Shown: positions 3,358-21,849, numbered from the stretch's first letter. The stretch is DNA of 64,000 bases from Clostridia bacterium (GCA_017429985.1 JAFRNW010000010.1:5700-69699); one strand, 5' to 3'. Notes: generated by a model from the sequence alone, not told the origin. Numbers and translations: made by a program.

Positions 3358-4643
3358 TTTTTCAGCCTGGCCATAAAGAATCCGTCCGTTCCGTGAACAT
3401 GGGGCAGCAGCTGAAGCATGCTTCCCTTTGTAAAGGGAAGTCTGTCCGGAACGAAGTCGCGGTGGTTGTCCAAGAAGGCGCGGATCTGATCCTCGTTTTC
3501 CTTCAATGAGATCGTGCACGTCGCGTAGAGAAGGATGCCGCCGGGCTTGACATACCGGGAGCAGGTGTCGAGGATCTTCTTCTGCAGATCAGCAAGCGCG
3601 GCAACATCGGACTCGGTTTTCGCATACCGCAGGTCGGGTTTTTCATGAAACATGCCGAACCCGCTGCAGGGCACGTCCAGCAGGACAAGGTCAAACATTC
3701 CGTCAAACCGCTGATCCGGCACGGACGCGTCCCGTTCCTCTACCGTTCCGGGGACGTGGAGACGCCGCAGCGTTTTTCTCGTCAGTTCGACACGGTGGCG
3801 GTGGATCTCAAAGCAGGTCAGATCCAGACTGTTTCCGGAAAGAGAGGCGAGATAGGCCGCCTTTCCGCCCGGGGCGGAGCAGGCATCCAGAACCTTTTTC
3901 CCGGAGCAGTCCCCGGCAGCCCTGCAGATCAGCATGGAGCCTTCGGACTGGATGGTCATCCTTCCTTCCTGAAAAGCGGGGAAACCGGTGAAATCGAATC
4001 CTTTTTCCGCGATCAGCGCGTCCGGGTCGAAGGAACCGCGGTGTGTCGGGACCGGCAGTTCCGCCTGGAGCTGATCGGCGGTATAGGGGTACTGCGCGCG
4101 GAGCGTGGTTCCGGGCGTTCCGGAGGAGAGGAGTTTGGCGGCGGCCTCTCTGCCGTACATTCCGATCCACATGGATACGATCCATGGCGGGCAGCTGTAC
4201 TGGACGGAAAGCTGATCCACGGTGTCATCCGGGAGGGGCGGGAGCGTGCCCCGCTCGCGGTCAACCCGGCGGAGCACCGCATTGACAAAGCCGCGAAGTT
4301 CCGTCCGCCCGGCTTCCGCACACAGGGAAACGTATTCGGAGACCGCCGCGTGAGCGGGCGTTCTGAGAAACAGCAGCTCGGTCACGCCGAGGCGGAGGAT
4401 ATTTTTAACAAGAGGTTTCGGGTTTTTTTTGACGAAGCCGCTCAGAACGTGGTCCAGATACAGCAGACGGTCCAGCGCCGTATACACAAGCGCGCATACG
4501 AACCGGTAATCCGTGTCGTTCATCAGGGGACGGAGTTCTTTCAGACGGAGATTGCAATAGGAATGACTGGCAAGTACGTCCGAAAAGACATTCAGCGCGT
4601 AATGCCTGGGAGAAAGCTGGTTGTGGAGCTGCTGCCTGCTCAT
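3348..4643 (-). CDS. rsmB: 16S rRNA m5C967 methyltransferase RsmB/Sun
   Basis: DACSAPGGKA SAM-binding motif and DVPCSG catalytic Cys motif, with an N-terminal NusB-like region. Start at 4643 gives an ATGA overlap with the fmt stop. Confidence 0.85.
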   Translation of the reverse strand: MSRQQLHNQLSPRHYALNVFSDVLASHSYCNLRLKELRPLMNDTDYRFVCALVYTALDRLLYLDHVLSGFVKKNPKPLVKNILRLGVTELLFLRTPAHAAVSEYVSLCAEAGRTELRGFVNAVLRRVDRERGTLPPLPDDTVDQLSVQYSCPPWIVSMWIGMYGREAAAKLLSSGTPGTTLRAQYPYTADQLQAELPVPTHRGSFDPDALIAEKGFDFTGFPAFQEGRMTIQSEGSMLICRAAGDCSGKKVLDACSAPGGKAAYLASLSGNSLDLTCFEIHRHRVELTRKTLRRLHVPGTVEERDASVPDQRFDGMFDLVLLDVPCSGFGMFHEKPDLRYAKTESDVAALADLQKKILDTCSRYVKPGGILLYATCTISLKENEDQIRAFLDNHRDFVPDRLPFTKGSMLQLLPHVHGTDGFFMARLKKCI

Positions 4644-5566
4644 GTGAGGACGGAACCGCAGATGTTTCTGCCCCGCAGAAAAGTGACGGCGTCCAGACGC
4701 TTGCCGCCGGGCGCCTGAAGCTCCAGGATACGGACGGGGCGGTCGGCGCACTGCAGGAAAAGCCCTTCCTTTTCGCTTCCGAACAGCGTTCCCGGCACCG
4801 AACCGGACGGATCCCTGTCTGTGAGGGCGGTCTTCCATATCTTCAGCGGCTCCCCGTTCAGAAGCGCGTACGCCCCGGGCCACGGGTTGACGCCGCGGAC
4901 CAGGTTGTGGACGGCGGATGCGGTTCCGGAAGGATTGATTTTGCCGTGTTCCTTTTTCAGCATGGGGCACTTGGTGGCCAGCGCTTCGTCCTGGGGTGTC
5001 CGGACGAGCGTGCCCGCTTCCAGGGAGGCGATGGTCTTTTTCAGGAGTTCCGCGCCGATCAGGGACAGCCTTCCGTACAGCTCGCCTGCCGTTTCATCGG
5101 GCCCGATCTCGGTTTCTTCCTGCATCAGGATATCCCCGGTATCCATGCCGACATCGGTCTGCATGGTCGTGATGCCCGTGACCGTTTCCCCGTCAATGAC
5201 GGACCACTGGATCGGGGCAGCACCGCGGTATTTGGGAAGAAGGGAGCCGTGCACGTTGATGCATCCGTATTTCGGAACGGAAAGGTTTTCGGCGGAAAGG
5301 ATCTGGCCGAACGCGGCTGTCACCATAAGGTCGGGAGCGAAGTCTCTCAGCGCCTCCACGCCTTCGGGGCGCCGGATCTTTTCAAACTGGAAGACCGGGA
5401 TCCCGTGTTCCTGCGCCAGAAGCTTGACGGGGGGCGCATCAGGTGTTTTGTGGCGTCCGACCGGGCGGTCGGGCTGGGTAAAGACGGCCAGCTCGTGACC
5501 GCTTTCGATCAGCATCCGGAGCGAAGGAAGCGCAAATTCTGGCGTGCCGAGAAAAGCTATCCGCAT
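4640..5566 (-). CDS. fmt: methionyl-tRNA formyltransferase
   Basis: MRIAFLGTPEFA N-terminus and HGSLLPKYRGAAPIQ motif. Conserved def-fmt order. Confidence 0.95.
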   Translation of the reverse strand: MRIAFLGTPEFALPSLRMLIESGHELAVFTQPDRPVGRHKTPDAPPVKLLAQEHGIPVFQFEKIRRPEGVEALRDFAPDLMVTAAFGQILSAENLSVPKYGCINVHGSLLPKYRGAAPIQWSVIDGETVTGITTMQTDVGMDTGDILMQEETEIGPDETAGELYGRLSLIGAELLKKTIASLEAGTLVRTPQDEALATKCPMLKKEHGKINPSGTASAVHNLVRGVNPWPGAYALLNGEPLKIWKTALTDRDPSGSVPGTLFGSEKEGLFLQCADRPVRILELQAPGGKRLDAVTFLRGRNICGSVLT

Positions 5567-5569
5567 GGA

Positions 5570-6061
5570 TCAGACCTCCTCTTCTTCGGCATGATCGCGG
5601 AGATACTCTTCCGGAGGCTCCTTGACCAGACGCAGGTAGGTGAGCCCGTCCAGATGATCCACCTCATGTTGGATGGCGCGGGCGAACAGGCCGTGCGCTT
5701 CGTAGGCGTGCGGCTCTCCGTTCCGGTCCTGCGCGGTCACGACCACGTGCTCCGCGCGCTCGACGTATCCGGACCGTCCGGGGAAGGACAGGCATCCCTC
5801 CATGCCGCCCTGGATCCCGTCGCGGCTCAGGATGACGGGATTGACAAGTTCCACGCACTCGTTTTCCTCTCCGGTATCGATCACGCAGATCCGCCTCAGG
5901 ATCCCCACCTGCGGCGCGGCAAGGCCGACGCCGTCGGCGTCATACATGGTATCGAACATATCATCGATCAGTTCGCCCAGGGACGGACCGAATTTATCAA
6001 CAACCCTGCATTTTTTCGAGAGACAGGGCTCGTCATCTTTTCGGATATTGCGCAGTGCCAT
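5570..6061 (-). CDS. def: peptide deformylase
   Basis: GVGLAAPQVG, EGCLS and HEVDHLDG metal-binding motifs. AGGAGG Shine-Dalgarno (SD) sequence at 6071..6076 on the minus strand. Confidence 0.95.
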   Translation of the reverse strand: MALRNIRKDDEPCLSKKCRVVDKFGPSLGELIDDMFDTMYDADGVGLAAPQVGILRRICVIDTGEENECVELVNPVILSRDGIQGGMEGCLSFPGRSGYVERAEHVVVTAQDRNGEPHAYEAHGLFARAIQHEVDHLDGLTYLRLVKEPPEEYLRDHAEEEEV

Positions 6062-6161
6062 TCGTCAGAACCTCCTAATACACTTATTTTATTATAGCCT
6101 TCCAGCGGAAGGCTGTAAAGAAAGAGGGCTTTCCGGAAGCGTCGCAGTTCCCGGCGCGCGG

Positions 6162-6191
6162 TTGTGCAGAAACGGAGGAATCGTGTATAAT
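6162..6191 (+). promoter_or_regulatory. candidate sigma-A promoter for the 6228..7721 gene
   Basis: TTGTGC (6162..6167), 18-nt spacer, TATAAT (6186..6191). Read by eye only. Confidence 0.35.
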
Positions 6192-6227
6192 GAATCAGAT
6201 GTGTAAGATTTGGGGGCATATGGACAG

Positions 6228-7721
6228 ATGCGGCTGAAACAGAGGATACAGGACAGGAAATGGCTTCTTGCAGCGCTTGCGCTTTTCTGGATCCTTGTCT
6301 GCGCGGTAAAGCGCCAGCTGTTTATGAGCGCAGTCACCGCGGTGCCCGTTATCCTTTTCTGCTGCTGTTCTTTTCTCGTTACGCTTTTTCTCAGGGGAAT
6401 GTCCGAAAAGGACTTTCTCCTGATCGCCTGTTTCCTCGGCGTCTTTTTTATCGTGATCGCGCCGTTTGCCTGCATCATCGACGAACGGTATCACTTCGCC
6501 AGATCGTTCCTGCTGTCGGGGGGCAGTTTCTTCCATCAGAGCGTGAACGGAACGACGGGCTTTCTGCTTCCGGATGGTTTTGACATATATGCGCATCCAG
6601 CCGGATGGAACCCGTCCAACGTCTCGGAACTGCGGGACATATGGTTTTCTTCCGCGGAGAATCTCGCGTTTGTTCCTTATACGAGATCCGCTTCCTACCT
6701 TCCTCTGGACTATGTGTTCAGCGCGCTGGGGATGGCATTCGCGAGGCTTCTGCGCCTGCCGCTCGTCTTTGTCGTGCTGTTCGGGCGTCTGTTCAACTAT
6801 GCCGCATATGTTGCCGTCAGCTATTTTGCCATCCGGAAGGCGCGCTATTATAAATCGCTGTTCTTCCTGGTGGCGGTGCTTCCGAGCTGCCTGTATGCGG
6901 GAGCCGTGATCAGCATCGACGCGTGTCTCCTTTCGTTCTGCCTGCTGTACGTGTCGACTGCCCTGAATTACTGTCTGGATGACGATCTTTTCGAGATCAC
7001 GCCGGGCGACATGGCCGTGCTGCTGGTTTCCGCCACGTTCATTCTGTCGACCAAGTACTTCGGGTATTTCCCGATGCTGCTGCTGATCCTGTTTGCGGCG
7101 GGAAAACGGCTGAAGCGATACAGACAGACACTGATCGGTCTCGGCGCCGTGACAGCAGTGATGGCAGTATGGCAGATCTATATGGTCAGAATCGCGCCGG
7201 GGAGCATAGACGAAGGCGCTGTGTTCGAGGGCGTCAGCCTTGCCGGGCAGCTGGAGTGGATCTTTGCCCACAAAGGCAAGTTTCTGCAGCAGCTCGGGCA
7301 TCAGATGATTCTGGAGGCTCCGCAGCAGATCTATGCCTATTCCTATTCGGAAGAGCCCGCTTTCGCCGCGCTTTCCCTTCCGCTTAGATTTGTTCCTTTC
7401 CTGGCCGCCGCATGGTCCGAGGACAAGTATCCGATGGAACTGAAACAGAGACGCGGTCTGAATTTCTACTGGATCCTGTCCGCCTTCGTGATGATGGCGA
7501 TTTGCTATATCGGACTGTATCTGGCATGGACGCCGGTCGGGGCTCCCGCTGTGGAGGGCATGCAGTTCCGTTATGCCACGCCCTATATGATCTTTATCCT
7601 GCTTGCCGTTTCCACGATCCAGACGGTGAATACGGTCAGGGACCGCGAGAGGATTACCGCTTTCCTGATGGTGCTCCAGCTGGTGAACATGCTGACGGGC
7701 ACGGTCCTGCATTGGGGCTGA
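6228..7721 (+). CDS. polytopic membrane protein, DUF2142-like / GT-C-fold glycosyltransferase candidate
   Basis: Many hydrophobic helices. Acidic loop motif IIDERYHFARSF follows the third TM helix, as I recall for DUF2142/GT-C proteins. The antisense ORF 6195..7781 is Arg/His-rich junk. Start could be TTG 6210 or ATG 6228. Confidence 0.6.
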   Translation: MRLKQRIQDRKWLLAALALFWILVCAVKRQLFMSAVTAVPVILFCCCSFLVTLFLRGMSEKDFLLIACFLGVFFIVIAPFACIIDERYHFARSFLLSGGSFFHQSVNGTTGFLLPDGFDIYAHPAGWNPSNVSELRDIWFSSAENLAFVPYTRSASYLPLDYVFSALGMAFARLLRLPLVFVVLFGRLFNYAAYVAVSYFAIRKARYYKSLFFLVAVLPSCLYAGAVISIDACLLSFCLLYVSTALNYCLDDDLFEITPGDMAVLLVSATFILSTKYFGYFPMLLLILFAAGKRLKRYRQTLIGLGAVTAVMAVWQIYMVRIAPGSIDEGAVFEGVSLAGQLEWIFAHKGKFLQQLGHQMILEAPQQIYAYSYSEEPAFAALSLPLRFVPFLAAAWSEDKYPMELKQRRGLNFYWILSAFVMMAICYIGLYLAWTPVGAPAVEGMQFRYATPYMIFILLAVSTIQTVNTVRDRERITAFLMVLQLVNMLTGTVLHWG

Positions 7722-7768
7722 ACCGCTGCGATACCTGCCGAACGGAAGCTGACACAAAAGATAAAGAC

Positions 7769-7800
7769 ACAGTCCCGGCACTGCAGCGCGCCGGGACTGT
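7769..7800. terminator. bidirectional stem-loop between convergent genes
   Basis: ACAGTCCCGGC (7769..7779) pairs with GCCGGGACTGT (7790..7800), an 11-bp perfect stem. T-rich on the minus side (gtctttatctttt), weaker TTGCT on the plus side. Confidence 0.55.
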
Positions 7801-7830
7801 TTGCTATAGAGGGGAACCGGGAAGGAACAA

Positions 7831-8790
7831 TCAGTCGGAAGTGCTCCCGAGCCAGCTCCGGATGATATCGATCAGCTCGGATACATCTTTCTTGCCGTTT
7901 TCCTCCGAAGAGGCGTCAGAGGCTGCCGTATCGTCGGCGGTAAGTCCGGGCTGGACAGGGCCTGCGGCTTCCGGAACCGCATCGGGTTTTCCGACAGCCA
8001 TGTCGATCCCCGCATCCGCAAGCGCCTCGTTCAGCGCTTCTTCCGCGGAAGCGATTCCGTCGGACGATTCGCCGCTGACCGTGTCAGGCACTGTGGAGAG
8101 GGCGGATTCCAGTTCGTCGAGGAGGGAGGTCAGTCTGTCTTTTGCAGCCTGATCCTCGATGTTGTCGATGGAGGAACGGATCCGGGAAAACGGATCGGAT
8201 CCCATGCCTCTGCCCTTCGCTCTGCCGCGGAATCCGTCCTGAGGGATACCCTGCGGATCCTGCTGTCCAGGCTTGCCGACCTGAACGGTAAGTCCTGCAG
8301 CTTTCAGCGCCTCGTTCAGTGCCGTTTCTGCTTCTGTCAAAGCGCTGCTGTCCGTATTGCCGTTCGCTGTGCGTCCGGCTTCCAGCGCCTGTTTCCAGGC
8401 TTCGAACAGGCTGTTCAGATTCGTCTTTGTTTCTCCGTCTTCCAGTCCGTTGATGGCGGCGGAGATGTCATCAAAACACGTCCCCATTCCGTGCTTTCCG
8501 CCTGCTTTCTGTCCGTTTCTGCCCTGCTGGAAATCCCTGCCGCCTCTTCCGCCTGCAAAGATTCCGTTATTCTGTCCGGGTATGCCGGAATTGCCCGGAT
8601 TCGTCTGCGTGCCGGGAAGCTGGCCGGACGGCGGCATGAATGCCTGGCCCTGCTGGGCTGGCTGATCCGGGAAATGGGTCGAAGGGGTCTCCTGATCGGA
8701 TCCTTCTGCAAAAGCCGCAGCGGAAAGTGAGAGTACCAGAACAGCGGCAATCGCAGCTGTTAGAAAACGTTTGATTCTTCTGTTGTTCAT
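7831..8790 (-). CDS. secreted protein of unknown function with two internal ~74-aa repeats
   Basis: Signal peptide MNNRRIKRFLTAAIAAVLVLSLSAAAFA then EGS, a Gly/Gln/Pro-rich linker, two helical repeats and an acidic C-terminus. AAGGAGA SD sequence upstream of the ATG. Confidence 0.75.
   Translation of the reverse strand: MNNRRIKRFLTAAIAAVLVLSLSAAAFAEGSDQETPSTHFPDQPAQQGQAFMPPSGQLPGTQTNPGNSGIPGQNNGIFAGGRGGRDFQQGRNGQKAGGKHGMGTCFDDISAAINGLEDGETKTNLNSLFEAWKQALEAGRTANGNTDSSALTEAETALNEALKAAGLTVQVGKPGQQDPQGIPQDGFRGRAKGRGMGSDPFSRIRSSIDNIEDQAAKDRLTSLLDELESALSTVPDTVSGESSDGIASAEEALNEALADAGIDMAVGKPDAVPEAAGPVQPGLTADDTAASDASSEENGKKDVSELIDIIRSWLGSTSD
7987..8490 (-). repeat. intragenic tandem duplication (units 8269..8490 and 7987..8208)
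   Basis: Unit 1 runs GMGTCFDDISAAINGLEDGETKTNLNSL...AETALNEALKAAGLTVQVGKP. Unit 2 runs GMGSDPFSRIRSSIDNIEDQAAKDRLTSL...AEEALNEALADAGIDMAVGKP. Confidence 0.65.
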
Positions 8791-8840
8791 GTTCTTTGTC
8801 TCCTTTGTAATGGATTGGGTTATGACCCTTTGCCAAACAA

Positions 8841-8869
8841 TACGGAAGCCACGACATCAAAAATGGGGT
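8841..8869 (-). promoter_or_regulatory. candidate sigma-I-type promoter upstream of the secreted repeat protein
   Basis: Minus strand reads tgACCCCatttttgatgtcgtggcttcCGTAttg. ACCCC, 20 nt, CGTA: the same architecture and spacing as the site upstream of sigI. Confidence 0.45.
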
Positions 8870-8916
8870 CAGTGTGTAATTTTTATGTCCGAAGGATATG
8901 CCGACACGGTTTGCAC

Positions 8917-8943
8917 ACAAAAAACAGCGCTGTGCGCGCTGTT
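8917..8943 (-). terminator. rho-independent terminator after the rsgI-like gene
   Basis: Minus strand reads AACAGCGC-gcaca-GCGCTGTT followed by TTTTTGTGTG. Confidence 0.6.
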
Positions 8944-8982
8944 ATGTTCTCTGAAATTGTGCGAATCGGGACGGGTGCTGTA

Positions 8983-9627
8983 TCAGTGCTCGACTTCGGA
9001 GGAAGGATCCGCTGACATTTCGTTTTCTGTTCCGATGTCCATACGGGCGTCATTGGCGCGGCCGTGCCCCTTGGGACCGATCTTGCCGTCAAACTTGCCG
9101 CCCGGCTGGGAAAAACCGTCGAGCTTTTTCTGGAGTCTTTGTCTGTGGCGTCCGTTGCCGGCATCTGTGCTGATTTGAAAGGAATCAAACGACAGTCCGT
9201 TATGCTGCTGGTTGCCGAGCTTTTCGACGGTCGCAGAAATGGCTCTGTCGACGGGACGGTGGCGGAGTTCGCGTCTGTCCATTTCCAGAAGGAGCGTTTC
9301 ACCGGATTCATTGCCGCCCTTGACATCCAGTACGTAGTCGAAGCAGTTGATCGTATAGACGAGAGAGGAATCCGAGTCTGCATCCAGCGTAACCGTTCCG
9401 TAAGGCATGGCGTAAGCCGTTCCCGCGCCTGCCACAATGACCATTGCGGCAGCTACGGTTCCGGATATCGCGCGTTTCCAGGCTCGTGACATACCGGCGG
9501 TTTTCATTTCATGCAGATCGAGCTGCTGTCCGATCTCATAACCCTGATTACGAATCCGGACAACCGCGCCGTCTTCCCTGAGGGCTGCGGCATGGCGGCC
9601 CCGGATATCAACGATTACTGCGTTCAT
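8983..9627 (-). CDS. rsgI: anti-sigma-I factor, RsgI-like (short form)
   Basis: N-terminus MNAVIVDIRGRHAAALREDGAVVRIRNQGYEIGQ resembles the RsgI_N domain. One TM segment (ISGTVAAAMVIVAGAGTAYA). Juxtamembrane segment YGTVTLDADSDSSLVYTINCFDYVLDVKGGNESGETLL. ATGA overlap with the sigI stop. Confidence 0.7.
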   Translation of the reverse strand: MNAVIVDIRGRHAAALREDGAVVRIRNQGYEIGQQLDLHEMKTAGMSRAWKRAISGTVAAAMVIVAGAGTAYAMPYGTVTLDADSDSSLVYTINCFDYVLDVKGGNESGETLLLEMDRRELRHRPVDRAISATVEKLGNQQHNGLSFDSFQISTDAGNGRHRQRLQKKLDGFSQPGGKFDGKIGPKGHGRANDARMDIGTENEMSADPSSEVEH

Positions 9628-10394
9628 ACTGGCATTTCCTCTTTCATAAACTTCAAATACTCCTGAAGGAACGGATAGTCGCCGCTCAGAACCAGAACCG
9701 CCATAATGAGGTATTTGCGGTACCGGTCCAGGGTTTTGCGCGGGACGCCCGACGACGCGGAGAGCGATTTGATCGGGAGCTTGTGTGTTTTCTCCAGCTC
9801 AGACAGGAATTCGGGACGGGATAGCATATACCTGACGGCCGCGGCGCATTCCTGCTTGGTCTTCTCCTGCCTTGGCGAGCATTCCGTGAGATCGAAAAAG
9901 CGGAAACCGTATCCGCGCATCTTTTCATTCATGGAAAGGATCTCGTCCCGGAGGCTGCCGGAGGAACGTGCCTTGCTGGCCTCCATCACGGCAAGGTAGA
10001 CGCCTTCCGTGTCTTCGCCCGGCTCGCCGTTGCCTTCCAGAATGTGCGGCGCGACGGGAACTTCGCGCAGATCGTTTTTCCGCGACCGGAAATAGTCGAT
10101 CAGCGCGCGGCGGATCAGGATCTGCGAGAAGGGAAGGAAATCCCCCTTTTCTCCGTCATAGCTGTCAATGGCTTTGTTAAAGGCAGTGAGCGCGACCGAC
10201 CATTCGTCATCCTGTCTGGTAATATAGCGGTTGCACACCAAAGACGCTGTGCGCAGGATGGTTTGTTCCTGGCTCAGGATCAGATCCTCACGTATGCGGT
10301 CATCGGATGATGCCGCAAATGCGGTTGTATTGATGGAATCGCGCATGCTGAATGCTTCCGGATGAGCCTTCCGCCTTGTTTCCAACAGTTCCAT
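9624..10394 (-). CDS. sigI: RNA polymerase sigma-I-like factor
   Basis: Region 2-like DEWSVALTAFNKAIDSYDGEKGDFLPFSQILIRRALIDYFR and the SigI-type C-terminus GVPRKTLDRYRKYLIMAVLVLSGDYPFLQEYL. Start placed at the ATG at 10394 behind AAAGGCGGA; the TTG at 10412 is an alternative. Confidence 0.75.
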   Translation of the reverse strand: MELLETRRKAHPEAFSMRDSINTTAFAASSDDRIREDLILSQEQTILRTASLVCNRYITRQDDEWSVALTAFNKAIDSYDGEKGDFLPFSQILIRRALIDYFRSRKNDLREVPVAPHILEGNGEPGEDTEGVYLAVMEASKARSSGSLRDEILSMNEKMRGYGFRFFDLTECSPRQEKTKQECAAAVRYMLSRPEFLSELEKTHKLPIKSLSASSGVPRKTLDRYRKYLIMAVLVLSGDYPFLQEYLKFMKEEMPV

Positions 10395-10419
10395 ATGGGT
10401 TCCGCCTTTCAAATATCTA

Positions 10420-10448
10420 TACGAAAGAGGAGCCTCTGAAAAAGGGGT
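10420..10448 (-). promoter_or_regulatory. candidate autoregulatory sigma-I-type promoter upstream of sigI
   Basis: Minus strand reads cgACCCCtttttcagaggctcctctttCGTAtag. ACCCC, 20 nt, CGTA. The CGTA lies 25 nt upstream of the ATG at 10394. Confidence 0.5.
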
Positions 10449-10476
10449 CGGCCGATGCTTTTGCTGAAATAACTGC

Positions 10477-10500
10477 GGCAGGGGATGCGGAACCCCTGCC
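10477..10500 (-). terminator. stem-loop after the 10521..11858 gene (possible partial terminator)
   Basis: GGCAGGGG-ttccgcat-CCCCTGCC on the minus strand, followed by a weak T-containing tail (gcagttatttc). Confidence 0.4.
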
Positions 10501-10520
10501 GCGGGGAGAAGTCCTGCCGT

Positions 10521-11858
10521 TTACCGGGAGGAAGGGAATTCCTTCCGTTCTTCCGTTTCCCGGATGAAACCGACTGCCAGAAGGCTGAGCGCGGCAAGCA
10601 TAAAGAACGCCAGCACGTAGGTCGGGATAACGACCGCGTCAAACAGATAGGCGGCATGGCAGAGGAAGGACGCGATACAGACCAGAGCGGGGATATACCA
10701 GCGCTTCGGCTCGAAAAACAGAAATACGACGGCGACGGTGTCGGCAAGATAGAAGTATCGGTCATGCATCAGCGGGAGGAAGAACGGGATCATGACCGCG
10801 AAGATCAGGGAAGCTTTGACGAGATCCGGCGTGCCGAGACGGTCCCTTCTCCAGTACAGATAGAGGAGGAAGGCAAGCACAACCGTGCCCGCTATGAAAA
10901 TGCCGGCGGCCGTGACGGGGATGTTGGACTTGGTTCCCTGGGGGAGCCAGGCAAATACGTTCGGTGCGAGCATGGACAGTTCGGAATAGGAGTTTGCCTG
11001 ATTCCAGTAGACGGAGATGCAGCTGATCGGACTTCTTCCGGCGATCATGGCGGGGATCAGAAGTCCGACGAATACCGCGGCAAAGACCCAGACGTCCCGA
11101 AGGCGGATATCCTTTCTGAACAGGAATACGATCAGCATCGGCATCAAGAAGACCGTCTGAAGCTTAAAGGAAAGCGCAAGGGCGAAAAACGCCCAGCAGA
11201 GGCGGCTCTTTTTCTGCAGCCCGTAATACAGTCCGCCAAGCGCGAACGCGGAGAAAACGCTGTCGCACTGCCCCCACATGGCGCTGTTGACGATCACGCT
11301 CGGAACAAGCAGCGCGGCGAAGAACGCGACGATTCCCGTCATCCTGTTTTCCGTCTTCAGACCGATGAGCTTCATGACGTAGTATGCCAGGATAAAATCG
11401 AAAAGGACGGAAAAGATCTTCAGGGAGAACATGAAATACGCATACGGGACCAGTTTCGCTATGCCGAACAGGAGATACAGATACGGCATATTGTAATTGG
11501 CTATTTCCGCGGCAAGGGATTCCGCGCCCGGAAGTTCCAGCATATACTGCATCCAGATGTTGAGATAATCGCTGAAGTCATCCGTCACATGGGGCAGCAG
11601 GGAAACGCGGGTAAAAAGCGTCAGTCCGAGAAGGACCAGGATTGCGGTAAACGAAAGGATGGAAAGCGGCCGTTTCTTCTCGCCGATTCCCGTAAAGAGG
11701 AGCGCTGCCGCTGCAGCATAGATCAGCGCGACGGGGATGCCCGTACCGAAAGGAACCGGCTGCCGCGAGGTAAAGGACAGGACCGCCGGGGTGAGCAGCA
11801 GGCATACCAGGATGGCGGCGCCGAAAAGCAGATATTTGGGCAGAGTCTGTTTATTCAA
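10521..11858 (-). CDS. polytopic membrane protein, Gpi18/PIG-V-like (GT87/COG5542-type) mannosyltransferase candidate
   Basis: Ten or more hydrophobic helices. Early loop HVTDDFSDYLNIWMQYM, and ANYNMPYLYLLF, which resembles the YNYPPL motif I recall for this family. The antisense ORF was rejected. Confidence 0.6.
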   Translation of the reverse strand: MNKQTLPKYLLFGAAILVCLLLTPAVLSFTSRQPVPFGTGIPVALIYAAAAALLFTGIGEKKRPLSILSFTAILVLLGLTLFTRVSLLPHVTDDFSDYLNIWMQYMLELPGAESLAAEIANYNMPYLYLLFGIAKLVPYAYFMFSLKIFSVLFDFILAYYVMKLIGLKTENRMTGIVAFFAALLVPSVIVNSAMWGQCDSVFSAFALGGLYYGLQKKSRLCWAFFALALSFKLQTVFLMPMLIVFLFRKDIRLRDVWVFAAVFVGLLIPAMIAGRSPISCISVYWNQANSYSELSMLAPNVFAWLPQGTKSNIPVTAAGIFIAGTVVLAFLLYLYWRRDRLGTPDLVKASLIFAVMIPFFLPLMHDRYFYLADTVAVVFLFFEPKRWYIPALVCIASFLCHAAYLFDAVVIPTYVLAFFMLAALSLLAVGFIRETEERKEFPSSR

Positions 11859-11870
11859 GGCAAATCCTCC

Positions 11871-13349
11871 TTACTGCTGCGGCATGTCTTTCGACGTACC
11901 GCCAACACGGACCGAATTGAGGTTGAAGTACATGGCGTAGACCTCGTTCCTCCAGTTGTATCTGGACGGCCCAAGGTCGTTCTGGATCAGAAGCTCCGGC
12001 ATATTGCTTAGAGGAGCGAGCACAACGTCCCGGCCGGCTGCGTCCTGACAGGTTTTCCAGCGTTCGCTCTGCTCTGCATAATAAACGGACGCAGTCCCGT
12101 TCAGGAGGTCTCTTCCGGCCTTGAAGGACGTGAAGGAACTGTAGCTACCGACGCATACGATCAATGTCATTATACAGTAGCCGAGCAGAAACATGCGTAT
12201 TGTTTTTGCTTCGAACAGCGTGCCGGGATTCTGCCGGATTTTCCGGAAGAGCCATCCGGTCAGATAGAAGACGTTCGCAAAGAGCAGCAGAACATACAGG
12301 AAGAACTGGATGTCGAGCAGCCTCCCCGATCCCGTGTAGTCCTGCGTGTAAAGCGTCGGGACATAGCCCGCTGCGATCAGGAACAGAGAGGCGAACATAA
12401 CGAGCAGGGGAAACCGGAAACGGAAGTCTGATCTGCCCGCGAAACCGACTGCCGCAGGAACTGCCGCGAACGAAAGGAGCAGTACGGGAAGCGTCGACCA
12501 TTCCGCGACAGAGGCGGCGGTCTTCATGACCGCCTTGACGCCTGCGCGCAGGAAGGCGGTGAACCCCGAATAAAACTGCCGCCCGGCGTTGGCGGGACTC
12601 TTGATGCTGATCAGGAACATGACCAGGAAAAGGAGAAACGTGGCAAGAGGAAGCGGATTCTTCTCTCCGGCGCGGAACTCCAGAATAACGACGGCTGCCA
12701 GGATCATGAGCAGATGGAGCCCTGTCGTATAATTGCCCCCCGCAAGCAGGGCTGCGAGAAGCGGAAGCACGATATAGAAAACGATGTTTCCGCGCTTCCC
12801 TTTTGTTCTGCGGATAAAAGCAAGAAGAGCGGACAGAAAGATCAGTGCAAAACTGAAACAGAGACAGTAGTAGCAGGAACCGTTGAACCAGTAGAGCCCC
12901 TGAAGCGGATTCGGAAGAAACTGTGTGCAAAGGATCGAAACGAGCGCGAACAGAAGAAGCTGCGAGGCGGGTGGCAGACGCAGGACATGCTTTCCGACGG
13001 AATGCACGAGGCACCATAATCCGAGAAGCAGGAATCCCGTCATGATCACAAACGTCCAGAAATACGCGTGTATTCCGAAAATCCCGGGCTGCAGCGACAT
13101 GAGAAAAACGGCGGAATACGATCCCTGCCAGTGATAGTAGACATACTGTACCATGCGGAGCGCGGCCTTCAGAACCGGGGCAAGGCTATGCGTGGAATTC
13201 CAGACACGGGCAGTATTCTGACCGTACGTATAGTCATCATTGATCGGGACATCATATTTCGCGATCGCCAGCATCGGTGCAAGAAGAGCTGCAAGCAGGA
13301 CCAGCGCGGCAACCGCGGCAATTGTGATGATAAGAGGCGTTTTTTTCAT
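11871..13349 (-). CDS. polytopic membrane protein, possibly DUF6056-like / GT-C candidate
   Basis: TM1 is followed by KYDVPINDDYTYGQ (acidic loop), then more than 10 helices. A 12-nt gap to the downstream GT gene suggests an operon. Start at the ATG at 13349 (MKKTPLIIT). Confidence 0.55.
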   Translation of the reverse strand: MKKTPLIITIAAVAALVLLAALLAPMLAIAKYDVPINDDYTYGQNTARVWNSTHSLAPVLKAALRMVQYVYYHWQGSYSAVFLMSLQPGIFGIHAYFWTFVIMTGFLLLGLWCLVHSVGKHVLRLPPASQLLLFALVSILCTQFLPNPLQGLYWFNGSCYYCLCFSFALIFLSALLAFIRRTKGKRGNIVFYIVLPLLAALLAGGNYTTGLHLLMILAAVVILEFRAGEKNPLPLATFLLFLVMFLISIKSPANAGRQFYSGFTAFLRAGVKAVMKTAASVAEWSTLPVLLLSFAAVPAAVGFAGRSDFRFRFPLLVMFASLFLIAAGYVPTLYTQDYTGSGRLLDIQFFLYVLLLFANVFYLTGWLFRKIRQNPGTLFEAKTIRMFLLGYCIMTLIVCVGSYSSFTSFKAGRDLLNGTASVYYAEQSERWKTCQDAAGRDVVLAPLSNMPELLIQNDLGPSRYNWRNEVYAMYFNLNSVRVGGTSKDMPQQ

Positions 13350-13469
13350 AGCGGTACTCGTTTTTGCGGGGTTGCGTTTCTGTGGAATCAACCGTATAGG
13401 ATATCGTACCATGAAACGGCATGCCGGCGCAGCGCTGCCTGCGTTTTGTTTGCAGACTTGTTACAGAGT

Positions 13470-15728
13470 CTACAGCATGTCCTGCGGATTGATTTCAAGC
13501 GTGGCGAACAGCTCGTTCCGGTGTTCCGATTCGTAGTCGTAAATCAGATGCAGAATATCCGCGGTGCGTTTGGTGCGGAGAAGTTTGATGAGTACCTGAT
13601 ACCGGTAGTTGTTCATCTTTCGCTGGATCGGCGCGGGAGAGCAGGAAAGCATCAGGAGATCGTTTTTCCCCTCTTCGCCGAGATGCTCCAGGAGCACGGC
13701 TTCGAGATTCCTGCCGTACTGCTCGCCGGTCCTAAACAGGGCTTCTTCGTCGGGACCGGAGAAGAGCAGCCGGACGAACATGGAGAAAGGGGGGAACAGG
13801 GCATGCCTGCGCTGCGCGAGCTCGTACCGGTAAAAGCCCTTGTAATCGTGATCCTTCGCAAACACGATGGCGGGATGATTCGGAGAATAGGTCTGGATGA
13901 TGACTTTCCCCGGGGTCTCATCCCGGCCCGCTCTTCCGGAGATCTGCGTCAGGAGCTGGAACGTCCGCTCCGTGCTCCGGTAATCGGGGATGCAGAGAGA
14001 CGCGTCCGCGGCAACGACGCCGGCAAGCGTAACATTCGGAAAGTCATGGCCTTTTGCGATCATCTGCGTGCCGATCAGCACGCTGTACTCGCCGGAAGCA
14101 AACGCGGAAAGCGTCTGCTGGTATGCGTTTTTATGATGCATGGTGTCGGTATCCATGCGGAGGGAAGTGACACCGGGGAACAGGGCCTGGAGCTGTTCCT
14201 CCACCTGTTCCGTTCCGATGCCGAAAAACTTGATGAACGGTTTTCCGCAGTTCGGGCAGATTTCGGGAACCGGCCTGCTTGCCCCGCAGAAATGGCATTT
14301 CAGTCTGTTCCCGTGCTTGTGATAGGTCATGCTGATGTCGCAGTTGGGGCACTGGATGACGGTTCCGCAGGACCGGCAGGAAACGAAGGTGGAATAGCCG
14401 CGCCGGTTGAGGAACAGCATGGCCTGATGTCCGCCGTCCAGACACTCCCGAAGCAGCGACTGCATCTTTCTTGAAAAGATCCCGTTGTTGCCCGCAAGGA
14501 ACTCCTCGCGCATATCGACGGTTTCGACCTCCGGCATCGGCCGGTGCATGACCCGTTCCGGCATTTCAAGCAGCCTGTATCTCCCGGACTGCGCACGGAA
14601 ATAGGAGAGAAGGGAGGGGGTGGCACTTCCGAGAAGGACCGGTATGCGGAAGGACCGGGAACGGTGCGCGGCGATTTCGGCCGCATGATAGCGGGGAGCG
14701 CTTTCGCTCTGGTAACTGGATTCGTGCTCTTCGTCGATGATGATCAGACCGAGATTGGAAAAGGGAGCGAATACGGCGCTGCGGGCTCCGACGACGACAC
14801 GAGCCCGGCCGAGGCGGATGCGCCGCCACTCGTCGAACCGCTCTCCTGCGCTGAGACGGCTGTGGAGGACCGCGACATCGTCATCGAAGCGCGCGCGGAA
14901 GAGCCCGACGGTCTGCGGGGTCAGTGAGATCTCCGGCACCAGCACGATGGCTTCCCTGCCTGATTTCAGGCAACGGTCGATGCACCGCATGTAGACTTCC
15001 GTTTTTCCGCTTCCGGTCACCCCGTGCAGGAGAAAGGTTTCCGCGGACTGCTGCACGACGGCTTCCGAAACCGCGTCCACGGCATTCTGCTGCGCTGCGT
15101 TCAGCACAACGGGCGTGTCCGCCCGCCTGCAGGAATAGTCCGGCCGACGGAACGTGACGTGTTCGTTTTCCAGAATAAATCCCTTCCGGATGAGCGCGCT
15201 GATGGCGGAAGCGGCTCCGGGCAGATACGCACGGATGTCCGCCACGGACATTTCCAGTCCGGTATTATGGAGGAGACTGACGACTTCCAGCTGTTTCGGC
15301 GCAAGCGCCTTCCCGCCGGAGGTCCGGAGAGCGGCGAGCATCTCCGCGTACGGGATCTCCCCAGAGAGCACGACGGTCCGTTCGGATTTTTCACGGACCC
15401 GGCTGCCGCGCAGCCTTGCAGGGATCATGAGGCGCAGCGCCTCTACAAGAAGACAGTGGTAACTCCGGGATACCCATCCGGCAAGCTCGATCTGCTCTTC
15501 CGTCAGGACGGGATACGGTTCCATGACGCGGATGATATCCTTTACGGGGAAATCCGTGTCGAAGTCGCTCTTCACGGAAAGGACGAATCCCTCCTTCAGT
15601 GCGTTTCCGCTTCCGAACGGCACAAGGACATGCTGCCCGGCAGAGATATTCAAATGTTCGGGCACACGGTATGTGAACAGCCGGTCCACATTGGCGTGGG
15701 CGATATCGATAATGACTTCCGCAAACAT
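13470..15728 (-). CDS. priA: primosomal protein N' (replication restart helicase PriA)
   Basis: GVTGSGKTEVY Walker A, IIIDEEH Walker B and the Cys-rich Zn region CRSCG...CPNCD...CHFCG...CPNCG. Confidence 0.95.
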   Translation of the reverse strand: MFAEVIIDIAHANVDRLFTYRVPEHLNISAGQHVLVPFGSGNALKEGFVLSVKSDFDTDFPVKDIIRVMEPYPVLTEEQIELAGWVSRSYHCLLVEALRLMIPARLRGSRVREKSERTVVLSGEIPYAEMLAALRTSGGKALAPKQLEVVSLLHNTGLEMSVADIRAYLPGAASAISALIRKGFILENEHVTFRRPDYSCRRADTPVVLNAAQQNAVDAVSEAVVQQSAETFLLHGVTGSGKTEVYMRCIDRCLKSGREAIVLVPEISLTPQTVGLFRARFDDDVAVLHSRLSAGERFDEWRRIRLGRARVVVGARSAVFAPFSNLGLIIIDEEHESSYQSESAPRYHAAEIAAHRSRSFRIPVLLGSATPSLLSYFRAQSGRYRLLEMPERVMHRPMPEVETVDMREEFLAGNNGIFSRKMQSLLRECLDGGHQAMLFLNRRGYSTFVSCRSCGTVIQCPNCDISMTYHKHGNRLKCHFCGASRPVPEICPNCGKPFIKFFGIGTEQVEEQLQALFPGVTSLRMDTDTMHHKNAYQQTLSAFASGEYSVLIGTQMIAKGHDFPNVTLAGVVAADASLCIPDYRSTERTFQLLTQISGRAGRDETPGKVIIQTYSPNHPAIVFAKDHDYKGFYRYELAQRRHALFPPFSMFVRLLFSGPDEEALFRTGEQYGRNLEAVLLEHLGEEGKNDLLMLSCSPAPIQRKMNNYRYQVLIKLLRTKRTADILHLIYDYESEHRNELFATLEINPQDML

Positions 15729-15798
15729 AGAATGCTCCCGCGTCCGGTGTATAACCTAGAAAAGCCCGCGGATGCGGGCCTGATGTACAAAGACAGGA

Positions 15799-16008
15799 TT
15801 AATTCTGGCTCTGATAGTATTCTTTCGGGGGTTCGATCACAAGCTCGTCGCTGTACAGTTCTTCCACCGCTGCCGTCACGGGTTTGCGGCCCGCAAGGAC
15901 ATCCGGCTCGTTCTGCAGCTGGCGCGCACGTTTGGCGACCGCGGTCACAAGCATGTAGCGGCATCCGCCGGCTTTTTTAATGAGAGTGTTCAAAGGTTGA
16001 TTCATCAT
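15799..16008 (-). CDS. rpoZ: DNA-directed RNA polymerase subunit omega
   Basis: 69-aa ORF with RYMLVTAVAKRARQL. Sits downstream of gmk with a 4-nt overlap. Confidence 0.85.
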   Translation of the reverse strand: MMNQPLNTLIKKAGGCRYMLVTAVAKRARQLQNEPDVLAGRKPVTAAVEELYSDELVIEPPKEYYQSQN

Positions 16009-16631: not shown

Positions 16632-16651
16632 TTGATTTCACCTCTTTCGGG

Positions 16652-17527: not shown

Positions 17528-17601
17528 GAGAAACCTCGATTCAAATCATTATTATAGCACAACAATTGCGGAAGAGACAACTGCGGGCGGAAACGGGCAT
17601 G

Positions 17602-19563
<1,962 letters not shown>

Positions 19564-21843: not shown

Positions 21844-21849
21844 ATTAAA

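What the first reader, a model, noticed from the sequence alone, without database searches (positions are those of the whole stretch)
7831..10448. Sigma-I/RsgI-like pair with the same ACCCC-N20-CGTA motif upstream of sigI and of the neighbouring secreted-protein gene
sigI (9624..10394) and the rsgI-like gene (8983..9627) overlap by ATGA and end at a stem-loop/T-run terminator (8917..8943). The same element occurs on the minus strand upstream of sigI and upstream of the next gene (7831..8790). The two copies are cgACCCCtttttcagaggctcctctttCGTAtag (10448..10420) and tgACCCCatttttgatgtcgtggcttcCGTAttg (8869..8841). Both have ACCCC followed by a T-run and exactly 20 nt before CGTA. A C-rich -35 (ACCCC) and a CGWA -10 is the signature reported for sigma-I promoters in Bacillus subtilis and Clostridium thermocellum. 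This predicts an autoregulated sigI-rsgI operon with an adjacent target gene encoding an uncharacterised secreted repeat protein. I saw no third copy upstream of the other accessory genes I inspected.
Basis: partly seen in the sequence, partly recalled or inferred. Interest (0 to 1): 0.7.

Follow-up and report, generated by a model that had tools for sequence, protein, structure and literature searches.

The report
Self-activating sigma-I switch with secreted partner
This is a real sigma-I/anti-sigma-I gene pair whose own promoter signature also sits in front of the neighbouring gene for an unknown secreted protein. The same three-gene unit recurs in many uncultured gut and rumen Clostridia, in a variant form that lacks several hallmarks of the textbook system.

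Summary
On the minus strand, sigI (10394..9624) overlaps rsgI (9627..8983) by ATGA. Terminators isolate three transcription units. GACCCC-(n)TTTT…CGTAT, with exactly 20 nt between ACCCC and CGTA, precedes sigI and the secreted-protein gene "X" (8790..7831). The bare motif is not enriched: 2 found against about 5 expected. A weight matrix, however, scores these two sites at 45 and 42 bits, with the next best in 64 kb at 4.3.

In 62 related loci (279 kb) the motif gives 47 sense-strand hits and no antisense hits. Every hit lies directly upstream of sigI, of an X homologue, or of a Cthe_2159-type secreted protein. The spacing equals the published Bacillales sigma-I consensus (ACCCCC--AA-N15-CGAA).

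Three features depart from the textbook system:
- A T-tract replaces the essential A-tract.
- The SigI histidine that reads the A-tract is glutamine (PKHRDSR becomes PRQEKTK).
- The RsgI SEAL-like domain lacks the Asn-Pro self-cleavage site (Asp-Ser here), as in the unexplained C. thermocellum RsgI8.

X is a rare, unannotated family: signal peptide, Gly/Gln-rich disordered region, 1–4 three-helix repeats and a C-terminal Trp helix. No transcription data exist, and the function of X and the inducing signal are unknown.

The parts
10475..10502 (-). Intrinsic terminator of the upstream membrane-protein gene (10521..11858). It insulates the sigI promoter from read-through.
   Evidence: 10-bp stem with 9 GC pairs, followed by a T-rich tail.
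10409..10449 (-). Predicted sigma-I promoter of sigI-rsgI. GACCCC is at 10449..10444, the T-tract at 10443..10439, and CGTAT at 10423..10419. The predicted +1 is A at 10409, giving a 15-nt leader (AAAGGCGGAACCCAT) before the ATG.
   Evidence: (45.4 bits). The spacing equals the Bacillales consensus (PMC4711584). The start site is inferred from the C-14 G-13 W-12 A-11 numbering in PMC10575876.
9624..10394 (-). sigI, 256 aa. The helix-alpha4 -10 reader region is at aa 89-103 (10086..10130). The SigIC alpha9 minor-groove motif SPRQEKTK is at aa 173-180 (9855..9878); the canonical form is (S/T/V)PKHRDSR.
8983..9627 (-). rsgI-like anti-sigma factor, 214 aa. It has an RsgI_N domain (aa 1-37), a TM helix containing VAAA (aa 56-73, 9409..9462), a SEAL-like domain (aa 77-173) and a disordered tail of about 40 aa. 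The beta1-beta2 hairpin reads LDADSDSS (aa 81-88, 9364..9387) where canonical RsgIs have D(I/V)NPS.
8912..8943 (-). Intrinsic terminator after rsgI.
   Evidence: 8-bp stem at 8943..8923, then TTTTTGTGTGC.
8830..8870 (-). Predicted sigma-I promoter of gene X. GACCCC is at 8870..8865, the T-tract at 8863..8859, and CGTAT at 8844..8840. The predicted +1 is A at 8830, giving a 40-nt leader with the Shine-Dalgarno sequence AAAGGAGA.
   Evidence: (42.4 bits).
7831..8790 (-). Gene X, a 319-aa secreted protein of a rare unannotated family. It has a signal peptide (aa 1-28), a Gly/Gln/Pro-rich disordered region (aa 29-104), helical repeat 1 (aa 106-171, 8278..8475), helical repeat 2 (aa 201-266, 7993..8190) and a C-terminal amphipathic Trp helix VSELIDIIRSWLG (aa 303-315, 7846..7884).
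7759..7800 (-). Intrinsic terminator after gene X.
   Evidence: 13-bp stem with 9 GC pairs, followed by a T-rich tail.

Best explanation
This is a positively autoregulated SigI/RsgI signalling module with one dedicated local target gene.

Proposed mechanism:
- RsgI is a single-pass membrane anti-sigma factor. Its cytoplasmic RsgI_N domain holds SigI inactive.
- An extracytoplasmic signal, probably a cell-envelope perturbation, destabilises the SEAL-like ectodomain of RsgI.
- This ectodomain lacks the Asn-Pro self-cleavage site. Release therefore probably needs unfolding and/or an external protease before the site-2 protease (RasP/RseP) cuts within the membrane.
- ClpXP then removes the remnant. 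The TM helix carries a VAA-type tag for this.
- Free SigI directs RNA polymerase to two promoters of the form GACCCC-n-TTTT-N14/15-CGTAT.
- One promoter drives sigI-rsgI, giving positive feedback and resupply of the anti-sigma factor. The other drives X.
- X is exported by Sec. It is probably retained at the membrane or wall surface by its C-terminal amphipathic Trp helix, exposing three-helix repeats and a disordered Gly/Gln-rich segment.

Shown: the gene identities, the domain folds, the promoter-like elements, and their conservation and strand- and position-specificity across about 40 distinct sites.

Inferred: that SigI uses these elements, the start sites, the proteolytic cascade, the nature of the signal, and everything about what X does.
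For: SigI family assignment.

RsgI domains: weak HMM hits, a confident model, and top-ranked fold matches to RsgI SEAL (8t9n, TM 0.66 on the target) and the RsgI1 N-domain (6ivs). Of 120 listed homologues, 111 carry a precomputed RsgI_M hit.

Operon layout: the ATGA overlap and three terminators define the units, and no sigma-70-type promoter is predicted in 7000..11500.

Motif: it equals the published consensus with identical spacing plus the downstream T (ACCCCC--AA-N15-CGAA----T; PMC4711584). There are only two high-scoring sites in 64 kb.

Footprint: GACCCC, the T-tract and CGTAT are the only invariant columns in 16 aligned sigI and X upstream regions drawn from 10 sources (the window and 9 loci). 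Those windows were centred on the motif, so the alignment is not an independent test; the point is that the motif blocks are invariant while the flanks and spacer vary.

Specificity across loci: 47 PWM hits on the sense strand and 0 on the antisense strand in 279 kb. All precede sigI (about 21 distinct sites), X (about 17) or a Cthe_2159-family secreted protein (2).

Reader residues: the SigI residues that read C-14/G-13 and A-11 in the solved open complexes are conserved (R101, D105, R108, D84, K87, G88, F94 in SigI1 numbering). The W-12 contacts differ (E78 to K, Q97 to I), in line with the invariant CGTA.

X linkage: X homologues lie next to sigI/rsgI on the same strand in 27 of 62 loci, either downstream of rsgI or upstream of sigI, including a Christensenellaceae locus with only 42% SigI identity.

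Precedent for signalling without cleavage: uncleavable B. subtilis RsgI-GGG still signals through unfolding, an unknown protease and RasP (bioRxiv 10.1101/2023.06.27.546760).
Against: No transcription data exist: no start sites, no expression data, and the organism is uncultured.

The bare motif is not statistically enriched in the window.

The loci are phylogenetically related, so 40 sites are not 40 independent events. The PWM columns for ACCCC, the T-tract and CGTA were conditioned on during site selection.

Three canonical features are missing: the A-tract, the minor-groove histidine whose mutation to Asn, Ser or Ala abolishes SigI6 activity, and the Asn-Pro site reported as essential for RsgI signalling in C. 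thermocellum. The mechanism therefore cannot simply be copied from the models.

SigI scores below every NCBIfam equivalog cutoff. Both RsgI Pfam hits are below gathering thresholds.

The X model is unusable (pLDDT 38), so X's structure and role are guesses.

One lineage (L020, L021, L023) has no such motif upstream of sigI.
Confidence: 0.8

Rival explanations
1. X is not merely an output. It is the extracellular partner of the non-self-cleaving RsgI: a ligand, co-sensor or feedback modulator that binds the SEAL-like ectodomain or its tail, for example through X's conserved C-terminal Trp helix. SigI, RsgI and X would then form a three-component signalling loop. This extends the best explanation and does not exclude it.
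For: - Linkage persists across large evolutionary distance even though the gene order changes. X lies downstream of rsgI in the window, L001-L007 and L029-L032. It lies upstream of sigI in L008, L033, L041, L043-L047 and L050-L052.
- In L022 a SigI-type promoter drives X followed directly by rsgI, with no sigI in between.
- RsgIs in this clade have no recognisable sensor domain and mostly lack Asn-Pro: only 8 of 121 sequences have NP. Some alternative trigger is therefore needed.
- The mechanism of the analogous RsgI8 is explicitly described as unidentified (PMC12203970).
- X-linked RsgIs are mostly non-NP.
Against: There is no interaction evidence of any kind. L008 has both an intact Asn-Pro and an X gene. 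Some loci with the same promoter carry a Cthe_2159-type protein in place of X, which looks more like an interchangeable output than an obligate partner. Many loci are too short to score X's absence. Adjacent target genes are also typical of ordinary ECF-like regulons.
Confidence: 0.25
2. The conserved element is used by a different sigma factor, such as an ECF sigma recognising a GAAC-like -35 and a CGT -10, or it is an operator for a transcription factor. Under this reading its association with sigI is only a matter of co-regulation.
For: ECF promoters also combine a C-containing -35, a T-rich segment after it and a CGT(A/C) -10. One example, from my own knowledge, is B. subtilis sigma-W: TGAAAC-N16-CGTA. 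PMC6056542 notes that T-tracts occupy this position in ECF promoters. The canonical SigI A-tract and its reading histidine are both absent here.
Against: - Spacing: GACC to CGTA is 22 nt, far from the ECF spacing of 16-17 nt. ACCCC-N20-CGWA equals the Bacillales SigI consensus exactly.
- The element tracks sigI itself in about 21 distinct loci, and no other sigma gene is conserved alongside.
- The element is asymmetric, strictly on one strand, and at promoter-like distances from start codons, unlike a dyad operator.
- The CG- and A-11-reading residues of SigI are conserved.
Confidence: 0.07
3. The two motif copies in the window are a chance coincidence, and X is expressed independently of SigI.
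For: The pattern ACCCC-N18-22-CGWA is expected about 5 times per 64 kb by chance and occurs only twice.
Against: Both copies have identical N20 spacing, lie on the coding strand, and sit within 25-50 nt of the two adjacent start codons. The extended match scores 42-45 bits against 4.3 for the next best site. Both sites are conserved in orthologues with 47-65% X identity while the spacer diverges. No antisense hits occur in 279 kb.
Confidence: 0.02

Closest known systems
Bacillus subtilis SigI-RsgI (cell-wall stress response)
   Same: - A sigI-rsgI operon with its own SigI promoter.
- The promoter geometry ACCCCC--AA-N15-CGAA----T is matched exactly in spacing, in the C-run and in the downstream T (PMC4711584).
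- RsgI has the same layout: N-terminal anti-sigma domain, one TM helix, a SEAL domain and a disordered C-terminal tail with no carbohydrate-binding module. The best structural match of the ectodomain is B. subtilis RsgI SEAL (8t9n).
   Different: - The -10 element is CGTA, not CGAA.
- A T-tract replaces the AA/A-tract.
- The SEAL hairpin DINPS, the autoproteolysis site, is LDADSDSS here.
- The disordered tail is only about 40 aa in the window protein, although it is 100-170 aa in most clade members.
- The known B. subtilis regulon (as I recall it: mreBH, lytE, bcrC) has no counterpart of X.
Clostridium thermocellum SigI8-RsgI8
   Same: The RsgI has Asp-Ala in place of Asn-Pro, does not self-cleave, has no recognised extracellular sensor domain and carries XAA tags in its TM helix. 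Its regulon and signal mechanism are unknown (PMC10328401, PMC12203970). In the clade studied here the site reads DS 58, DT 15, DA 12, ES 8, EP 8 and NP 8.
   Different: The predicted sigI8 promoter has the usual A-tract and CGAA (actttcCgaatcAAA…CGaA). I could not obtain the RsgI8 or SigI8 sequences or their locus, so orthology and the presence of an X-like neighbour are untested.
Clostridium thermocellum SigI1-7/RsgI1-7 polysaccharide-sensing pairs, especially SigI3 (CCCYYAAA-N13/14-CGWA, which requires CGTA)
   Same: The sigma factor has the same fold, with full-length alignment to SigI1 (8i23) and SigI6 (8i24) at E 5e-24 and 4e-22. The pairs are autoregulated and also drive secreted-protein genes. 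The -35 region is C-rich and the -10 element is CGTA, as for SigI3. In some related loci the same promoter drives a Cthe_2159-family carbohydrate-binding protein.
   Different: There is no CBM, GH or other sensor module on RsgI, and no Asn-Pro. The minor-groove motif PKHRDSR is PRQEKTK. A T-tract replaces the A-tract. The organism is an uncultured Oscillospiraceae-like bacterium, not a cellulosome producer as far as can be seen.
FIVAR/GA-type three-helix modules of Gram-positive surface proteins (compared with X only)
   Same: The units are about 70 aa long and tandemly repeated. They are predicted as three helices per unit and occur in a secreted protein.
   Different: The sequence similarity is only weak and sub-threshold: 7 of 30 repeats hit FIVAR, with a best E of 4.5e-4. 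There is no PDB match and no usable structure model. This is a lead, not a membership.

Membership tests
SigI (sigma-I) family | Sigma-2-like N-domain plus the SigI-specific C-terminal domain (SigIC) in place of sigma-4 | tested here: met
   Full-length alignment to the solved SigI1 (residues 18-250 against 22-248, E 5.4e-24) and SigI6. Pfam finds only Sigma70_r2 and no r4. Ten NCBIfam SigI models are the top hits.
SigI (sigma-I) family | Score above the curated NCBIfam SigI cutoffs | tested here: not met
   The best model is TIGR02895 at 172.9 bits against a cutoff of 185. All other SigI models also fall below their cutoffs. The protein is a divergent member.
SigI (sigma-I) family | Residues that read C-14, G-13 and A-11 of the CGWA -10 element | tested here: met
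   R101, D105, R108, D84, K87, G88 and F94 (SigI1 numbering) are conserved. R102 is Ala. The W-12 contacts E78 and Q97 are Lys and Ile.
SigI (sigma-I) family | Conserved minor-groove motif K-H-R-x-S in helix alpha9; the histidine is essential in SigI6 | tested here: not met
   PKHRDSR aligns without gaps to PRQEKTK. Of the 48 related loci where the motif could be read, 47 have Gln, Ala or Arg at the histidine position and one (L061) has His.
SigI-dependent promoter | C-rich -35 and CGWA -10 at the published spacing, with T four or five nt after the -10 element | tested here: met
   ACCCC-N20-CGTA equals ACCCCC--AA-N15-CGAA----T in register, and the T is present at the expected position in both copies.
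SigI-dependent promoter | A-tract at the 3' end of the -35 element | tested here: not met
   The position is occupied by TTTT(T) in both window copies. A T-rich tract is required by the selection of the 35 related sites, so it is not an independent finding there. It is seen again in the promoter alignment. The distant L008 and L046 loci keep an A-rich tract.
SigI-dependent promoter | Transcription actually initiated by SigI holoenzyme | not testable with these tools
   This needs in vitro transcription, a reporter assay or start-site mapping.
RsgI anti-sigma-I family | N-terminal RsgI_N domain, with the gene translationally coupled to sigI | tested here: met
   ATGA overlap. Pfam RsgI_N E 3.5e-4, below the gathering threshold. 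Model pLDDT is about 94 for aa 1-37, with a fold match to the RsgI1 N-domain 6ivs.
RsgI anti-sigma-I family | Single TM helix with an XAA (ClpXP) tag | tested here: met
   The segment GTVAAAMVIVAGAGTAYA contains VAA(A). The motif is defined in PMC10328401 and PMC12203970.
RsgI anti-sigma-I family | Juxtamembrane SEAL / RsgI_M (periplasmic) domain | tested here: met
   Pfam RsgI_M E 6.8e-4, below threshold. Most homologues carry the hit. Model pLDDT is about 90. The top Foldseek hit is 8t9n at probability 1.0 and TM 0.66 on the target.
RsgI anti-sigma-I family | Asn-Pro autoproteolysis site in the beta1-beta2 hairpin | tested here: not met
   The hairpin reads LDADSD-SS. P1' aligns to the Pro that begins chain B of cleaved RsgI9 (8u9o). 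The clade tally is DS 58, DT 15, DA 12, ES 8, EP 8 and NP 8 of 121. Whether cleavage happens by another route cannot be tested here.
RsgI anti-sigma-I family | C-terminal sensor (CBM/GH module or long disordered region) | tested here: inconclusive
   The window protein has only a low-confidence tail of about 40 aa. Most clade members have Pro-rich tails of 100-170 aa.
ECF (group IV) sigma/anti-sigma pair (considered as a rival) | Sigma-2 plus sigma-4 architecture, and a promoter with an AAC-type -35 and a CGT -10 at 16-17 nt spacing | tested here: not met
   There is no sigma-4 hit. The ECF model scores only E 2.5e-6 against 1e-50 for SigI. The spacing is 22 nt if GACC is taken as the -35 element.

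The most novel reading that the evidence does not exclude
SigI, a non-self-cleaving RsgI and the secreted protein X form a previously undescribed three-component signalling module in gut and rumen Clostridia. In this reading X, which is induced by SigI, binds or loads the RsgI ectodomain through its conserved C-terminal Trp helix. It supplies in trans the trigger or feedback that autoproteolysis plus a fused sensor domain provide in cis in canonical RsgIs. In the same clade SigI would have re-tuned its unique minor-groove -35 contact, His to Gln, to read a T-tract in place of an A-tract. If this is right, it offers a concrete, testable answer to how RsgI8-type anti-sigma factors generate their initial signal.
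Probability: 0.2. Interest if true: 0.7.

Novelty: new variant of a known kind. Interest (0 to 1): 0.5.

Why it matters
SigI/RsgI is the model for autoproteolysis-primed, possibly force-driven transmembrane signalling in Gram-positive bacteria. Two of its reported essentials are the Asn-Pro self-cleavage in RsgI and the histidine/A-tract minor-groove contact in SigI.

This window belongs to a clade of more than 100 proteins, all from uncultured gut and rumen Clostridia, that naturally lacks both features yet keeps a strongly conserved, autoregulated promoter. That gives three things:
- A natural set of non-cleaving RsgIs beyond the single puzzling case of C. thermocellum RsgI8.
- A candidate co-variation between a sigma residue and promoter shape that can be tested by swapping Gln and His and swapping the T- and A-tracts.
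- A new secreted protein family whose only known context is this switch.

For genome annotation, the extended motif cGACCCCnTTTT-N14/15-CGTAT is specific enough (0 antisense hits in 279 kb) to predict SigI regulons in these MAGs.

Tried and rejected
- Bare-motif enrichment in the window: not enriched. I used position, PWM and comparative tests instead.
- Structure of X: the AlphaFold2 model from a 9-sequence alignment gave pLDDT 38. No fold search was attempted, and only the secondary structure is used.
- Remote homology of X: Pfam and NCBIfam on full-length proteins, a repeat profile against PDB and Pfam on the repeats gave nothing significant. FIVAR, GA and SlpA_D2 hits, and a CpxP-like Metal_resist hit, are all sub-threshold.
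- The third homologue search, using the repeat profile at E 1e-5 or below, returned one protein. The word index limits short profiles, so this search was wasted.
- RsgI profile against PDB sequences: only a weak RsgI9 hit (E 0.27). I used it for alignment register only, and fold comparison gave the real support.
- Rfam scan of 7600..10700: no RNA family, so the leaders are not known riboswitches.
- Exact-motif hits inside coding sequence were rejected as coincidences. These were ACCCCGAAAAATA…CGAAG in the 3' end of sigI in low-GC loci, and GAAAACCCCGATGA… inside the Cthe_2159-like gene. They have no T-tract, and the sigI one encodes the conserved GVPRK..RYRKY peptide.
- His/Gln against A/T-tract co-variation: Gln-type SigIs with T-tracts form essentially one clade. 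Only two Ala-type loci show A-rich tracts, and the His-type locus L061 has a sigI7-like promoter. That is too few independent contrasts to call it established.
- NP status against X presence: suggestive only. L008 is a counter-example, and many contigs are too short.

Full report
**1. Observation**

- On the minus strand, sigI (10394..9624, 256 aa) ends in TGA inside the ATG of an rsgI-like gene (9627..8983, 214 aa).
- A stem-loop with a T-run follows rsgI (8943..8923).
- The next gene (8790..7831, 319 aa) encodes a protein with a typical Sec signal peptide (…AAAFA|EG) and two internal repeats.
- Two further terminators, at 10502..10475 and 7800..7769, isolate the units. The layout is therefore terminator, promoter, sigI-rsgI, terminator, promoter, X, terminator.
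- No sigma-70-type promoter is predicted in 7000..11500.
- ACCCC-N20-CGTA occurs at 10448..10420 and 8869..8841. These are the only matches to ACCCC-N18-22-CGWA in the window.

**2. Is it more than chance?**

The bare pattern is not enriched: about 5 matches are expected in shuffled sequence and 2 are found. The case rests on three other lines of evidence.

First, the literature. The published Bacillales consensus ACCCCC--AA-N15-CGAA----T (PMC4711584) puts exactly 20 nt between ACCCC and CGAA, with a T five positions after the tetrad. Both window copies fit this.

Second, a position weight matrix built from 35 distinct related sites. It scores the two window sites at 45.4 and 42.4 bits, and the next best position on either strand of the 64-kb window scores 4.3.

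Third, conservation, described in section 4.

**3. The proteins**

*SigI.*
- Ten NCBIfam SigI models are the top hits (E 7.5e-51 to 9e-25). The generic ECF model reaches only 2.5e-6. All SigI scores fall just under the curated cutoffs.
- The protein aligns end to end with the two SigI proteins solved in open complexes, SigI1 (8i23) and SigI6 (8i24), including the SigI-specific C-terminal domain.
- I read that alignment against the structural paper (PMC10575876). The residues that contact C-14 and G-13 and form the A-11 pocket are conserved. Two W-12 contacts differ (E78 to K, Q97 to I). That fits a clade in which the -10 element is invariably CGTA.
- The alpha9 motif PKHRDSR is PRQEKTK here, with no gaps in the alignment. 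In the model proteins its histidine inserts into the A-tract minor groove, and its replacement by Asn, Ser or Ala abolishes SigI6 activity.
- Of the 48 related loci where this motif could be read, 47 have Gln, Ala or Arg at that position and one has His.

*RsgI.*
- The Pfam RsgI_N and RsgI_M hits are sub-threshold.
- Of 137 homologues found, 120 are listed, and 111 of those carry a precomputed RsgI_M hit.
- An AlphaFold2 model built on 33 sequences is confident in both domains.
- Its best PDB matches are the B. subtilis RsgI SEAL domain (8t9n) and the C. thermocellum RsgI1 N-domain (6ivs).
- The TM helix carries a VAA-type ClpXP tag.
- The beta1-beta2 hairpin reads DINPS in B. subtilis, and there it self-cleaves between Asn and Pro. 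Here it reads LDADSDSS. The register is fixed by the alignment to cleaved RsgI9, whose chain B starts at that Pro.
- Across 121 clade members the two positions are DS 58, DT 15, DA 12, ES 8, EP 8 and NP only 8.
- The literature calls Asn-Pro cleavage essential in C. thermocellum and notes one exception. That exception is RsgI8, which has Asp-Ala, does not self-cleave, has no sensor domain, and has an unknown regulon and an "unidentified" signal mechanism (PMC10328401, PMC12203970).
- In B. subtilis an uncleavable RsgI still signals, through unfolding plus an unknown protease and RasP. A non-cleaving natural variant is therefore plausible.

**4. Comparative evidence**

*The closest relatives.* The secreted protein X has only 7 close relatives among 5.8 billion sequences, and 24 hits at E 1e-3 or better among 1.84 billion cluster representatives. 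The two relatives with enough contig on both sides (L001, L002) show the same synteny. The order is priA, DUF6056/GT_STM0557_N, a 445-aa membrane protein, sigI, rsgI, X, DUF2142 on the opposite strand, then def-fmt. The shorter contigs L003 and L004 cover part of the same order. Both promoters are present with N20 spacing in L001 and L002, while their spacers differ.

*Wider sampling.* A genome scan with SigI and a metagenome scan with an RsgI alignment added 56 loci.
- Across all 62 sources (279 kb), PWM hits of at least 12 bits number 47 on the sigI-sense strand and 0 on the antisense strand.
- The 47 hits represent 40 distinct sequences: about 21 directly upstream of sigI, about 17 upstream of an X homologue, and 2 upstream of a 662-aa Cthe_2159-family secreted protein.
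- In an alignment of 16 upstream regions, the only invariant columns are GACCCC, a T of the tract, and CGTAT.
- An A-rich UP-like stretch often precedes the motif, and a purine lies at the predicted +1.

*The X gene's position.* X homologues flank the pair on the same strand in 27 loci. They lie either downstream of rsgI with their own promoter, or upstream of sigI, apparently forming a P-X-sigI-rsgI operon. A Christensenellaceae locus (L008, SigI 42% identical) has X-sigI-rsgI with a canonical A-rich promoter, ACCCCaaatatt-…-CGAA. In L022 the promoter drives X and then rsgI, with no sigI between them.

**5. What X is**

- A signal peptide.
- A Gly/Gln/Pro-rich disordered stretch of about 75 aa.
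- One to four repeats of about 70 aa each, with the pattern I..AI.AL.D...K..L..LL..Y..AL…AL..AL..AGI. I extracted 79 repeat units.
- A C-terminal amphipathic helix with an invariant Trp. It reads IRSWLG in the window, and FLEWLK or NWF..LF elsewhere.

The model is unreliable (pLDDT 38) but predicts three helices per repeat. No Pfam, NCBIfam or PDB match is significant. The only recurring weak signal is FIVAR/GA-type three-helix surface modules. The function of X is unknown. I propose it is an envelope-located output of the switch, with a lesser probability that it also acts on RsgI.

**6. Mechanism**

*Shown:* the gene identities, the domain folds, the two promoter-like elements, and their specificity and conservation.

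*Inferred:*
- RsgI sequesters SigI.
- An envelope signal unfolds the non-cleaving SEAL-like domain.
- A site-1 activity and/or RasP/RseP, followed by ClpXP, releases SigI.
- SigI then transcribes sigI-rsgI from about 10409 and X from about 8830.

The start sites follow from the C-14 G-13 W-12 A-11 numbering. It also excludes the upstream TTG at 10412 as the sigI start codon.

**7. Rivals**

- An ECF-type promoter or an operator is unlikely. The spacing does not fit, the element is strictly strand-specific, it tracks sigI across loci, and the SigI -10 reader residues are conserved.
- Pure chance is excluded by the comparative data.
- The idea that X is a signalling partner of RsgI is compatible with the data but unsupported by any direct evidence. 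L008 (NP plus X) and the loci that carry a Cthe_2159 protein instead argue against an obligate role.

**8. Novelty and score**

What is new is the subtype. It has a T-tract promoter paired with a Gln-for-His SigI. It has a whole clade of naturally non-self-cleaving RsgIs. It has a conserved, unannotated secreted partner family.

I found no paper describing any of these. I rate it a new variant of a known kind, with interest 0.5. The prediction is solid and ordinary in outline, with specialist-level surprises that bear on an explicitly open question: how RsgI8-type factors signal. All of it is in uncultured organisms, with no expression data.

Noticed in passing
L022:808-2873: A SigI-type promoter (808) drives an X homologue (884..1642), followed directly by an rsgI (1839..2873) with no sigI gene in between. 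The upstream gene is unrelated. This is an orphan X-rsgI pair.
   Followed up: partly
L009:1083-3141; L013:390-2448; L014:424-: In these loci the same promoter precedes a 662-aa secreted Cthe_2159-family (PF14262, E 6e-67) carbohydrate-binding beta-helix protein located upstream of sigI. It is a second type of SigI target in this clade.
   Followed up: partly
L061:3120-3240: This locus is the only one whose SigI keeps the canonical SPKH motif. The region upstream of its sigI (GATTCGACTAATGTTTATAATTTATGTCGAACTATG) closely resembles the published C. thermocellum sigI7 promoter (attcgaCtgatgttAtt-taaatttgtgtCGaAct).
   Followed up: no
L020:1950-2070 (also L021, L023): This lineage has no SigI-type motif upstream of sigI. 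A sigma-A-like TTGTCG-N17-TAGAAT is present instead, so autoregulation may have been lost there.
   Followed up: no
L008:6567-6595; L046:3884; L054-L059: There are exact ACCCC-N20-CGWA matches inside the 3' end of sigI in low-GC relatives. They encode the conserved GVPRK..RYRKY peptide, lack a T-tract, and look like coding coincidences. L008's sigI also appears frameshifted in the assembly.
   Followed up: partly
window 6210..13412: sigI-rsgI-X sits together with three multi-pass membrane proteins between priA (13470..15728) and def-fmt (6061..4640). The three are DUF2142 (6210..7721, + strand), a 445-aa protein (10521..11858) and DUF6056/GT_STM0557_N (11871..13412). From my own knowledge, priA and def-fmt are usually adjacent in Firmicutes. 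The same six-gene block is present in L001 and L002. None of the membrane-protein genes has the SigI motif.
   Followed up: partly
window 52000..57900: This is a low-GC island (GC 0.40-0.50, against about 0.57 elsewhere) just downstream of rho (50637..52349). It holds a 642-aa ORF with no Pfam hit (52455..54383), a truncated Mutator-family transposase (55037..55492, 151 of about 379 positions) and an acyltransferase_3 gene (56799..57899). It is probably acquired DNA.
   Followed up: partly
window 10450..10475 and 8871..8895; alignment A4: An A-rich, UP-element-like stretch lies about 8-20 nt upstream of GACCCC in most sigI and X promoters of the clade.
   Followed up: no
window 1..64000: No tRNA or tmRNA genes are present in the whole 64-kb window.
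   Followed up: yes
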